64,000 bases of DNA. Origin: Callorhinchus milii. Taxonomy: Eukaryota. The position numbers were made by a program. Every line of letters starts with the position of its first letter. Position 1 is the stretch's first letter. Of this stretch, positions 9,001 through 12,000 are shown one piece after another. Where the stretch lies: assembly GCF_018977255.1 (NCBI RefSeq), contig NW_024704744.1:79732001-79796000 (forward strand), given 5' to 3'.

Positions 9001-12000
9001 ACAGGTTTATATAATCTCTAAGTGTTATTAACTCACAACCTGCTCAGAAGTATTCGGATAACACAGTGGTCTGAAATATTACATAATGTAATTGCTTTTT
9101 AACCTCTAGAATTAAATAAATGATAATAGATGTCTATTGTACCAAAATCAAATCTGTAAAGAAATTGCTTCCATGGATTTCAGCACTATCCACATACATT
9201 CAAATGTAAAGTGTACACAATAGCCCTGTGCAAATTTTACAAAAAATAAAGATTACTTTTTGTATCAACCCCAAATCTACAAGAAATATATAGATTTTAG
9301 TGGCGCAAATTAATCACACGTGCACACCAATGGAACCAAGGTGTAGAATTACATGAATGGTTTCACGAACACAATTTCTCATTAGGTTTTAATAAGTATA
9401 CCAACCTGCATTTACTATTGCGTCAATTTTAAGTTTTGTTATATCGCCTCTGTAGAGTGAAACCTTATCACTCAGATTAGTATTTTGGGGGTCAGACACC
9501 TCTTCATCGTCATCATCTGCAAAGTAAAATGGATTAATCAGCCTTTTGGCATCAAATTCCCCAAACAAATAATTATCTTCAGTCAATAAAGGTCAGCAAA
9601 CATGGTTAAGAAATTTGTTTGCCTCCTAGTGCCTCTTCTATGTCATAACAGCACAATCCCAATTTGTGACTACTGGGGCATGGTTTCATCAGAGGCATTT
9701 TCCTTCCAGTTTTTTTATTCATGTATGAACACTGGAAACATCAGCAAGCAAAATGATCATTGAGGGCATTGCAGCTAAACACAATCCTGTACTCACTGAA
9801 CATCAACACACATGCACCTCCAGCGGGGAAGCCATTTAATCCAATTTGGTGTCAACAAACCAGCTGGATAGTTTAATCTTCAGTCTCTGCTGTTCAAATG
9901 AAGAGTTTTAGATTTGATCATCTCACCGGATAACTTGATTTTCACACATCTACTGCTATGTTAATTTGCTACATAGTATAGCTGGGAATCCCACCGTGAC
10001 ATTGATACATACACCTTCTGCCTGCCAAGTCACAGTACAGAACTGGGACTTCCTGCACCAAGAGAAAGAAAGTCCTCCTCCTGCCCATCAAAAACAGAAT
10101 CGAAATTCTACAATCACATTTTAAAGCTTCTTGCTTAGAGTGTTTACTCCATTTTCACAAAACAGAAGGTCTTTTAGTGATGACAAAAGGGTCTCAGTCA
10201 GTTTGTACAGACTGATCACAATCACAACCAACAATTTTAAAAAAATAAACACACAATCTGGTTTGGCAAATAAAAATTGCATGTTTCCTGGAATGAATAA
10301 TGACACAAGTATTATTAAAAGTATGGTATTTCTATGTGTGAACTACGTATGTGAGCAGTAAATAAAACATCAGAATTTAAACTAGAAGTGATAATTTCTG
10401 TTGATGCTTCATAATTTGTTTGCTCAATTTAAAGACGTTCCTATATTCTATGAGATTTGCTTCAGGTTTTAAAAGAATTATCCTGAGTGAATCCAATGCA
10501 TTAAAGGCCAGTCTATGTTTTTTTAAAAAACTCACCCTGGTGTAATCTTTACTTTGAAATTTACATTAAAAGTTACATAAACAAACAATAATTCTTACAG
10601 TTCGCATAGCGCAGGGGTCATTTAAGTTACCACTGTTCACTTCGGAAGTTTAAAGATCACAGTGAGTAGGGAGGGGAGAGAGAGAGAGACGAGCAGGGCT
10701 TCCTTGAAGCTGAACTGGCTTGGCAACAGAATTGTCGGAATCAAGTCAACCCTCTTTGGTGATCTCAGTAGTTAAGAACTCGGTTGTATTGGATGCTCTT
10801 AAGCATGGTAGAACGATTTCCGCACAAGTGACACACCCAGCGGACAAAAAAAAGTAAATGACTCACAAAACTTGCAAAGAGAAAAAAAAACATTACACAA
10901 CCACTTTTTTTTTTACTTTGACAAACCAACCTGCATGTTCTGCTGGGCTATCTTTAGGTTTTGCATCACCTCCTCCAGATTGAATCTCTTTATCTGCTGT
11001 CTTGGCATTTTCTTGAATAATATCCCCTTCCTCTTCTTTATCTGCAACAATAAATAGTTTTAATTCTGCATCATATACAGGTTTAATCCTACATAGTTTA
11101 CTTGCTAAAAGTTATCAATAAAGACCATAAGTGTTAGTATCATTACTCATCCAGAAAGCACCTTTGTGGACTCAGTTTAACTTGAACTCCGCTAAGATCC
11201 GATTACATCTATTGGTGCAGTGGCAAATAGAATGGACAGACTGACCCAATGATATAAGGAAAGGGATTGTCATACAATCAGTCTTTTCTGAAGCATACAG
11301 GACCAAACTCATTTTCTCTTTCAATCCTGCTTGGAGTCTGGATGTGAATTTCTCTTTTCCATCATGTTTTGAAAACAATTTTTTTTTTGGCTCATCGCTA
11401 TTATATTCTTATCCCTCATAGTGGTATTGCCAAAGAAGACATCAACTGGATATGTACAACAGATGAATTTTCCAGGCAAGGTATTTATGATGGTTTTCCC
11501 CATCGTCAATTATTTCTCTCGGATTTCCCGTTTCAGTACCTTTGTCCCTTTCTGAGTGCTTTGAGATGATAATGTTTGTTTATGCTCAGCCCTTAGTCAT
11601 TGTTGGCAACAAAAACAAGTTTGTTTTGTTCAAGCTACTGAAGAGGCTGGGGCAGCTCATCCTTTGATTTTTTCTATTATGAGGCTATGTCTCTAAATAA
11701 ATCTGGAAAGAATTATATTTAGAGTTTGGATGCATGATAGATTTCGTTAAGATTAGTGGCATTAAACACCTCTTCTATCTGAGAACTCCGACAGACTGGA
11801 TATTGCAATCGTTTAATTACCTGTTTCCTGGGTTGAGTTACCCTTTGCTTAAAGCAGAGTGCACCATTATGCTCCCAGTAAGATGAGACAATTGCTTAGC
11901 GTTTGAAGGAGGGTAGCCTGGGGCAGCAGCTACTTGTCCTGATAGGGAGTTACACCAAAATTCAAAACATATGGAGGCATTACCAGGGAAGCTTATAAAG

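What the first reader, a model, noticed from the sequence alone, without database searches (positions are those of the whole stretch)
9406..11041. Apparent tandem duplication of the first MACROD2 macrodomain exon, with the upstream copy turned into a hydrophilic linker
Seen: two minus-strand exons 1.4 kb apart (10931-11041 and 9406-9516) are both exactly 111 nt and phase 1-1. Both start ttgcag|AT and end ATGCAG|GTTGGT. They align without gaps at 60/111 nt by my hand count, with identical residues at the same positions (E4, N11, D16-K17, G23, K27, K29, A36). The upstream copy has replaced the hydrophobic beta-strand residues (VSLY, I, L, I, IV) with polar, Gly or Pro residues, yet has no stop or indel. 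Inference: the exon was duplicated, stayed coding and was repurposed as a disordered spacer. Alternatively it is a mutually exclusive exon whose use would remove the GDIT ADP-ribose-binding motif and give an inactive isoform. I recall no such exon in mammalian or teleost MACROD2.
Basis: partly seen in the sequence, partly recalled or inferred. Interest (0 to 1): 0.75.

Follow-up and report, generated by a model that had tools for sequence, protein, structure and literature searches.

The report
Duplicated MACROD2 exon in elephant shark
In the elephant shark, the first exon of the MACROD2 enzyme domain was copied once in tandem long ago, and the extra copy is still spliced into the message as a water-loving spacer, an ordinary kind of gene evolution that databases already annotate as an exon.

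Summary
Two minus-strand exons, 11041-10931 and 9516-9406, are each 111 nt and phase 1-1, and match at 60 of 111 positions without gaps. No shuffle reached this (0 of 100000 mono, 0 of 20000 dinucleotide, 0 of 100000 codon shuffles), and the best other 111-mer in the window scores 51.

The window is the 5' end of Callorhinchus milii MACROD2. The upstream exon is already annotated. It sits together with the downstream exon in all 4 database records that cover the region, from NCBI and UniRef. So the two exons are not mutually exclusive in the known models.

The 37-residue insert is absent from 25 of 25 elasmobranch records (15 species) and from 29 of 29 named tetrapod MACROD2 records measured. 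Similarity ends about 19 nt before and 6 nt after the exons.

The upstream copy is more hydrophilic and purine-rich than random decay of the downstream copy gives. It matches nothing in Pfam or PDB.

Verdict: a real tandem exon duplication, seen only in Callorhinchus among the species sampled. It is a new example of a common process, of modest interest. The joined product was neither searched nor folded.

The parts
10931..11041 (-). MACROD2 exon 4, the upstream (diverged) copy. It is 111 nt, phase 1-1, and encodes D|KEEEGDIIQENAKTADKEIQSGGGDAKPKDSPAEHA, residues 49-85 of P0001.
   Evidence: peptide is an exact substring of P0001 at residue 50. (100% identity to XP_007890482.2). No Pfam hit and no PDB hit at E<=10.
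9406..9516 (-). MACROD2 exon 5, the first macro-domain exon. It is 111 nt, phase 1-1, and encodes D|DDDEEVSDPQNTNLSDKVSLYRGDITKLKIDAIVNA, residues 86-122 of P0001.
   Evidence: (matches solved MACROD2 chains 6y4y and 4iqy and MACROD1 chain 2x47)..
10925..11060 (-). Detectable duplicated unit, upstream copy: the exon plus 19 nt of acceptor region and 6 nt of donor (gttggt).
   Evidence: (136 nt, 58.1%, in register). (families D1 and D2, spacing 1525).
9400..9535 (-). Detectable duplicated unit, downstream copy.
9517..10930 (-). Intron 4 between the two copies, 1414 nt. It has no similarity to the flanking introns and is not repeated elsewhere in the window.
15100..15150 (-). MACROD2 exon 3, 51 nt, phase 1-1, encoding FHLKQKLEEKEQDEGI. 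Its donor is the one that joins to exon 4.
16535..16603 (-). MACROD2 exon 2, 69 nt, phase 1-1, encoding LDSFEDGLVNLKDISVWREDAK.
26120..26144 (-). Coding part of MACROD2 exon 1 (ATG at 26144, MPKEKKST), inside a GC-rich island.

Best explanation
The window is the 5' end of the elephant shark (Callorhinchus milii) MACROD2 gene. A short segment was duplicated in tandem, probably in the holocephalan lineage after its split from sharks and rays. The segment held the first macro-domain exon with its acceptor and donor sites. Today about 136 nt of it are detectable, 1525 nt apart.

Both copies kept their splice signals, their 111-nt length and their phase 1-1, so both are spliced into the same mRNA in frame. 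The downstream copy still encodes the start of the macro domain, including the VSLYRGDIT...DAIVNA stretch. In the upstream copy 7 of 10 hydrophobic positions were replaced. It now adds 37 acidic, Lys-, Gly- and Pro-rich residues to the N-terminal linker that precedes the macro domain.

Shown here: the homology of the two exons, their joint inclusion in database models, and the absence of the insert in other sampled vertebrates. Inferred: that the segment is disordered. Also inferred: that selection removed hydrophobic residues so that a second, competing first strand would not disturb folding of the macro domain, and/or kept a purine-rich exon that is well recognised by the splicing machinery.
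For: Homology:
- 60 of 111 ungapped identities, with 0 of 100000, 0 of 20000 and 0 of 100000 shuffles reaching the observed value, and a next-best window score of 51.
- A single in-register 136-nt blastn match, E 8.55e-5 against the whole window.
- A shared 12-mer across an identical donor, ATGCAG|gttggt, found only at these two sites.
- Same length and phase.

Expression and coding:
- The exon peptide is 100% identical to XP_007890482.2, MACROD2 isoform X2 of C. milii.
- Both exons are present in tandem in P0001, P0003 (V9KSB1), P0004 and P0005, which is 4 of 4 records covering the region.
- The 5' leader of P0003 differs from the window, so it was not predicted from this assembly.
- Passages of PMC3964593 state that assembled RNA-seq transcripts were deposited. 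That V9KSB1 comes from them is recalled.

Lineage restriction:
- The spacing from K[EQ]KLE to SLY[RQ]GDIT is 64 residues in 4 of 4 Callorhinchus records. It is 33 in 24 and 32 in 1 of 25 elasmobranch records from 15 species.
- In 29 named tetrapod MACROD2 records the LK[DEN]I to SLY spacing is 26-47, against 81 in Callorhinchus.

Selection on composition:
- 40000 simulations applied 51 random substitutions to exon 5, drawn from intron composition. Of these, 7672 stayed stop-free.
- Only 1 of 7672 had 3 or fewer hydrophobic residues, 38 of 7672 were as hydrophilic as observed, and 1 of 7672 was as purine-rich.
Against: - No reads were examined. Inclusion rests on database models, and how often the exon is included is unknown.
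- 'Isoform X2' implies other isoforms that I did not see.
- No genomic DNA of another vertebrate could be searched, so an unannotated or skipped copy in sharks, or its presence or absence in other chimaeras, is untested.
- Callorhinchus is 31 residues longer than elasmobranchs, not 37. The linker therefore differs by a further 6 residues that I cannot assign to an exon.
- Identity is equal at the three codon positions (20, 18 and 19 of 36; pS 0.44, pN 0.48). That gives no sign of purifying selection on the amino-acid sequence since the duplication.
- An open frame is weak evidence: 19% of simulated decayed copies stay stop-free, and 2 of 3 frames of the exon are open.
- The simulation is crude. 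It takes the present exon 5 as the ancestor, uses intron composition and has no transition bias.
- Protein-level similarity alone is weak: BLASTP gives 9 of 29 identities, E 0.003, helped by two intron-encoded residues.
Confidence: 0.8

Rival explanations
1. The two exons are mutually exclusive, or the downstream one can be skipped. Use of the upstream copy alone would then give a MACROD2 isoform without the first strand and the GDIT motif, which would be an inactive or regulatory form.
For: They are homologous neighbouring exons of equal length and phase, the usual raw material for mutually exclusive splicing (passages of PMC9013439; listing). Skipping either exon keeps the frame.
Against: 4 of 4 database records covering the region contain both exons in tandem. 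Nothing enforces exclusivity. Each exon is 3 x 37 nt, so double inclusion stays in frame. The intron between them is 1414 nt, too long for steric hindrance. Both have GT-AG sites. The upstream peptide has no macro-domain signal.
Confidence: 0.05
2. The similarity is chance or convergence. The upstream exon arose by exonisation of intron sequence, and it resembles exon 5 only through splice-site consensus and an acidic, purine-rich composition.
For: Part of the identity lies at the splice junctions and in an acidic 5' stretch. Protein similarity is weak. There is no flank similarity beyond 19 nt and 6 nt.
Against: Composition-, dinucleotide- and codon-matched shuffles never reach the observed identity. 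The core without junction bases is 52 of 103. The four inner 20-nt bins sum to 38 of 80. No other place in 64 kb on either strand exceeds 51 of 111. Exact equality of length and phase, and an identical donor hexamer, add to this.
Confidence: 0.04
3. The two-exon state is ancestral for jawed vertebrates or for cartilaginous fishes, and the upstream copy was lost in elasmobranchs and in bony vertebrates.
For: The duplication is old: flanks are fully randomised and the exons differ at 51 of 111 sites. Linker length differs between lineages anyway.
Against: It needs at least two independent losses against one gain. 25 of 25 elasmobranch and 29 of 29 named tetrapod records measured lack it. No teleost, lungfish, coelacanth or lamprey record was examined.
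Confidence: 0.07
4. The upstream copy is a tolerated passenger. It is spliced in because it inherited good splice sites, and its peptide has no role and is under no selection except against stops and frameshifts.
For: Divergence is equal at all three codon positions and pN is about equal to pS. The insert lies in a linker whose length varies widely among vertebrates. No domain or motif hit was found.
Against: Its hydrophobic content (3 of 36) and purine content (0.70) are each reached in only 1 of 7672 stop-free simulated decays. That points to some selection on composition, at the protein or the splicing level. There has been no change in length since the duplication.
Confidence: 0.2

Closest known systems
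Tandem exon duplication in animal genes (surveyed in PMC9013439, which cites a 2002 study finding it in about 10% of animal genes; passages read)
   Same: Adjacent exons of one gene, on the same strand, with the same length and phase, significant DNA similarity and duplicated splice sites.
   Different: Most studied cases are used as mutually exclusive alternatives with both copies keeping the fold element. Here both copies are included together, and one has lost all resemblance to the domain.
Tandem duplicated exon substitution events or mutually exclusive exons of vertebrates (PMC8373072, PMC9741552; search listing and abstracts only)
   Same: Origin by duplication of a single coding exon, ancient age, and a symmetric phase.
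   Different: Those events give isoforms that differ by a homologous, still functional segment. Here 4 of 4 models carry both exons, and the upstream one encodes a linker.
MACROD2 of elasmobranchs and tetrapods (named NCBI and UniRef records P0006-P0029, P0031, P0033, P0074, P0095, P0115, P0119)
   Same: Same N-terminal motifs, and the macro domain starts with an almost identical stretch (VSLYRGDITKLKIDA[IV]VNA).
   Different: They lack the 37-residue insert. The linker is 31 residues shorter in elasmobranchs and 49 shorter in most tetrapods.
Solved MacroD-type macro domains (PDB 4iqy and 6y4y MACROD2; 2x47 MACROD1)
   Same: Exon 5 aligns to the start of the solved domain: 4iqy_A residues 54-87 and 6y4y_A residues 182-213.
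   Different: Exon 4 gives no PDB match at E<=10.

Membership tests
Tandemly duplicated exons | Two neighbouring exons of one gene on the same strand | tested here: met
   Exons 4 and 5 of MACROD2, on the minus strand, 1414 nt apart.
Tandemly duplicated exons | Sequence similarity above chance | tested here: met
   60 of 111 identities; 0 of 100000, 0 of 20000 and 0 of 100000 shuffles reach the observed value; next-best window score 51. Blastn E 8.55e-5 against the window.
Tandemly duplicated exons | Same length class and intron phase, with duplicated splice sites | tested here: met
   Both are 111 nt and phase 1-1, with acceptor ttgcag|AT and donor ATGCAG|gttggt.
Tandemly duplicated exons | Both copies are expressed as exons | tested here: inconclusive
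   Both are present in 4 of 4 database protein records covering the region. No reads or junction counts could be examined here.
Mutually exclusive exon pair | One and only one of the pair is present in a mature transcript | tested here: not met
   All 4 records contain both exons. Minor isoforms cannot be excluded without reads.
Mutually exclusive exon pair | A mechanism that prevents double inclusion (frame shift with decay, a very short intron, or incompatible splice-site types) | tested here: not met
   111 nt is 3 x 37, so double inclusion stays in frame. The intron is 1414 nt. Both exons have AG...GT sites. Competing RNA structures were not looked for.
Macro domain (Pfam PF01661), MacroD type | Sequence match of the exon-encoded segment to macro-domain proteins | tested here: met
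   This holds for exon 5 only. It matches 6y4y (E 1.5e-6), 4iqy (E 2.5e-6) and 2x47 (E 1.6e-4). P0001 carries PF01661 as a precomputed annotation. The 40-residue piece alone is too short for Pfam (0 families).
Macro domain (Pfam PF01661), MacroD type | The upstream copy still carries macro-domain sequence features | tested here: not met
   0 PDB matches at E<=10, 0 Pfam families at E<=1 and 0 of 1.84 billion representatives at E<=0.001. Only 3 of 36 residues are hydrophobic, against 10 of 36 in exon 5.

The most novel reading that the evidence does not exclude
The upstream copy may be more than filler. It could be a holocephalan-specific regulated cassette, included, skipped or used without exon 5 in some tissues. 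That would tune the distance between the conserved N-terminal motif and the macro domain, or produce a catalytically dead MACROD2. In that case its exact 111-nt length and its extreme purine and hydrophilic bias would be kept by selection.
Probability: 0.07. Interest if true: 0.5.

Novelty: new member of a known kind. Interest (0 to 1): 0.25.

Why it matters
It is a clean, datable example of what can happen to a duplicated exon that encodes an essential fold element. Here the extra copy did not become an alternative exon and was not lost. Instead its hydrophobic strand residues were stripped and it stayed in the message as linker. That illustrates one route by which disordered linkers grow. 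It also shows that the N-terminal linker of MACROD2 is evolutionarily plastic.

The finding does not change what is known about MACROD2 function, and the exon itself is already in public annotation. I found no paper describing its origin. The searches were 'MACROD2' with 'Callorhinchus' (0 papers), with 'exon duplication' (2 papers, both on human copy-number or structural variation by title) and with 'shark' (7 papers, all human-disease papers by title).

Tried and rejected
- **Flank homology.** In-register identity falls to background beyond about 20 nt 5' and 7 nt 3' of the exons. Gapped local alignments of 60-600 nt flanks score no better than shuffles under two scoring schemes. The size of the original duplicated segment therefore cannot be recovered.
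- **Third copy or repeat-derived exon.** Sensitive blastn of both 136-nt units and of intron 4 against the window finds only the partner. The other matches are 38 nt or shorter.
- **Relatives of the upstream exon by protein search.** The word-indexed search of longer proteins gave only the C. milii cluster, 1 hit among 138 candidates at E<=10. The exhaustive HMMER search of 1.84 billion representatives gave 0 hits. That search did not return the window's own protein either, so the representative of its 50% cluster probably lacks the exon, and the blank says little.
- **Domain and structure matches.** Pfam gave 0 families for the upstream piece and PDB gave 0 matches at E<=10.
- **Protein-level comparison of the two exons.** It is weak: 9 of 29 identities, E 0.003, including two intron-encoded residues.
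- **Codon-position analysis.** It gives no dN/dS signal: 20, 18 and 19 of 36 identities, pS 0.44 and pN 0.48.
- **Not done.** The joined spliced product was neither searched nor folded; the model was searched exon by exon. No vertebrate genome collection was on hand. No supplementary files were consulted.

Full report
**What is there.** On the minus strand, 11041-10931 and 9516-9406 are each 111 nt. Each is preceded by ...ttgcag and followed by gttggt. In the frame left open by the preceding exon, they read KEEEGDIIQENAKTADKEIQSGGGDAKPKDSPAEHA and DDDEEVSDPQNTNLSDKVSLYRGDITKLKIDAIVNA. Each has a leading AT and a trailing G that belong to split codons, so both are phase 1-1.

**Is the similarity more than chance?** Yes.
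- Shuffling the upstream exon gives mean 31.7 (mononucleotide) or 33.2 (dinucleotide) identities, sd 4.4-4.5, maximum 53. None of 100000 and none of 20000 shuffles reach 60.
- Shuffling its codons in frame gives mean 35.7 and maximum 55, against 57 observed over 108 nt, with 0 of 100000 reaching it.
- Sliding either exon along the whole 64-kb window on both strands, the best place other than the partner scores 51.
- Without the junction bases the core is 52 of 103. The four inner 20-nt bins give 10, 7, 9 and 12.
- A sensitive blastn reports one in-register, ungapped match of 136 nt at 58.1% (11060-10925 against 9535-9400), with E 8.55e-5 against the whole window and no third copy.
- The 12-mer across the donor occurs only at these two sites, with 0.03 expected. 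From memory, a T at position +3 of a donor is uncommon, which makes the shared gttggt more telling. I did not test that.

**Where the similarity ends.** It stops about 19 nt upstream and 6 nt downstream of the exons. Flanks of 60-600 nt align no better than shuffles.

**What gene it is.** A 40-codon stretch around the upstream exon hits one protein cluster at 100% identity: ADP-ribose glycohydrolase MACROD2 isoform X2 of Callorhinchus milii, XP_007890482.2. Exon-by-exon translation places the window's exons in that protein:
- ATG at 26144, with exon 1 ending at 26120.
- Exon 2 at 16603-16535 (69 nt).
- Exon 3 at 15150-15100 (51 nt).
- Exon 4 is the upstream copy, residues 49-85.
- Exon 5 is the downstream copy, residues 86-122.

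All five introns are phase 1. Exon 5 matches the start of the solved MACROD2 and MACROD1 macro domains (6y4y, 4iqy, 2x47). The window has no N and is not human.

**Is the upstream exon used?** The cluster holds 5 records. Four cover the region and all four carry both exons one after the other. They are XP_007890482.2, its earlier version XP_007890482.1, UniRef V9KSB1 (457 aa) and UniRef A0A4W3K168 (199 aa). V9KSB1 has a 5' leader that differs from this assembly, so it comes from another sequence source. The genome paper states that assembled RNA-seq transcripts were deposited (PMC3964593, passages). That V9KSB1 is one of them is my recollection. I saw no reads, so how often the exon is included is not known. 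The mutually exclusive reading has no support in these models. Nothing in the anatomy would enforce it either: both exons are 3 x 37 nt, the intron is 1414 nt, and the splice sites are ordinary GT-AG.

**Who else has it?** A search with a named bamboo-shark MACROD2 (residues 1-110) returned orthologues. I measured the spacing between two flanking motifs.
- From K[EQ]KLE to SLY[RQ]GDIT the spacing is 64 residues in 4 of 4 Callorhinchus records. It is 33 in 24 and 32 in 1 of 25 elasmobranch records from 15 species of sharks, skates and rays.
- In 29 named tetrapod MACROD2 records that have both motifs, the distance from LK[DEN]I to SLY is 32 (25 records), 31 (2), 26 (1) or 47 (1). It is 50 in elasmobranchs and 81 in Callorhinchus.
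- Two named records lacked the first motif and were not measured. Ten unnamed rows were left out.

No teleost, coelacanth, lungfish, lamprey or second holocephalan was available, and no vertebrate genomic DNA could be searched. One gain in the holocephalan line is the most economical reading. The net difference from elasmobranchs is 31 residues rather than 37. In the alignment the elasmobranch residues YSPLKEG sit opposite GIDKEEE of Callorhinchus, so exon boundaries or lengths differ by six residues somewhere. I cannot resolve this without shark DNA.

**What happened to the upstream copy.**
- Its peptide has 3 hydrophobic residues of 36, against 10 of 36 in exon 5. Mean hydropathy is -1.47 against -0.77, and purine content is 0.70 against 0.59.
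- It matches nothing in PDB at E<=10, nothing in Pfam, and none of 1.84 billion representative proteins. The last blank is weak, because the window's own protein was not returned either.
- Identity to exon 5 is the same at all three codon positions (20, 18 and 19 of 36; pS 0.44, pN 0.48). So the amino-acid sequence as such was not conserved after the duplication.
- The outcome is still not what blind decay gives. I applied 51 random substitutions with intron base composition to exon 5, 40000 times. 19% stayed stop-free (7672). Among those, only 1 had 3 or fewer hydrophobic residues, 38 were as hydrophilic as observed, and 1 was as purine-rich.

The model is crude, but it points to selection on composition. 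The selection could act against a second hydrophobic first strand next to the real one, for purine-rich splicing enhancers, or both. That the segment is disordered is inferred from composition. I did not fold the joined product.

**How it compares with what is known.** Tandem exon duplication is common: about 10% of animal genes according to a 2002 survey cited in PMC9013439 (passages). Its best-known outcome is mutually exclusive splicing (PMC8373072 and PMC9741552, abstracts only). This case meets the tests for a tandem exon duplicate and fails those for a mutually exclusive pair. The exon is already in public annotation. I found no paper on its origin (judged by listings and titles only).

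**Limits.** The spliced model was searched exon by exon, and the joined product was neither searched nor folded. No RNA-seq, no other vertebrate genomes and no supplementary files were consulted.

**Verdict.** This is a real, old tandem exon duplication, seen only in Callorhinchus among the species sampled. The upstream copy is retained in frame as a hydrophilic linker. It is a new example of a known process, and interest is modest.

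Noticed in passing
window 24503-25640: A G-rich tandem array on the plus strand: period about 16, about 70 copies, consensus GGGGGGGGGGGAGTGTT. It lies in MACROD2 intron 1, just inside the GC-rich island. 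In the 24001-26000 bin GC is 0.63 and GC skew is 0.67.
   Followed up: no
window 27468-27872 (+), 34125-34520 (+), 56892-57263 (+): A gene lies head-to-head with MACROD2 on the plus strand. One open stretch has a signal-peptide-like start (MARGQLAVVPVLLAMALLLLQPLAAS). Two stretches match the Pfam Sel1 repeat: E 1e-6, just under the curated cut-off, and E 2.8e-11. It is probably the SEL1L2 orthologue sharing a bidirectional promoter. That SEL1L2 neighbours MACROD2 in human is recalled, not tested.
   Followed up: partly
window 15100-15150 and proteins P0033, P0074, P0095, P0115, P0119: The linker before the macro domain varies in length across vertebrates. The distance from LK[DEN]I to SLY is 32 in most tetrapods, 50 in elasmobranchs and 81 in Callorhinchus. 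In the alignment, tetrapods have a gap where chondrichthyans have much of the 51-nt exon 3 peptide, so exon 3 may also be lineage-specific.
   Followed up: partly
proteins P0027 (Heterodontus), P0028 (Mobula), P0029 (Hypanus): These predicted isoforms read ...VVNAVDGCIHR. They lack the ten residues ANKSLLGGGG that the other orthologues have right after the first macro exon. This looks like a skipped 30-nt micro-exon encoding a conserved glycine-rich motif. It lies outside the window.
   Followed up: no
window 13001-13399 (-), 19147-19716 (+), 31608-32126 (-), 34727-35407 (-), 46669-47166 (+), 49038-49655 (+): Open stretches with the same motif (…LARLHWLPI…I.FKI…) recur on both strands. They look like copies of one retroelement family scattered through the introns and the intergenic region.
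   Followed up: no
window 26100-26480 (-) and protein P0003: The first 22 residues of V9KSB1 (P0003) were not seen in any of the three minus-strand frames printed for this region. Residues 23-52 match at 93% next to a CT/GA microsatellite at 26303-26356. The transcript behind that record therefore differs from this assembly in the 5' leader.
   Followed up: partly
window 9406-26144 (-): All five introns seen here are phase 1. Exons 2-5 (69, 51, 111 and 111 nt) are all symmetric, so any of them could be skipped or duplicated without breaking the frame.
   Followed up: yes
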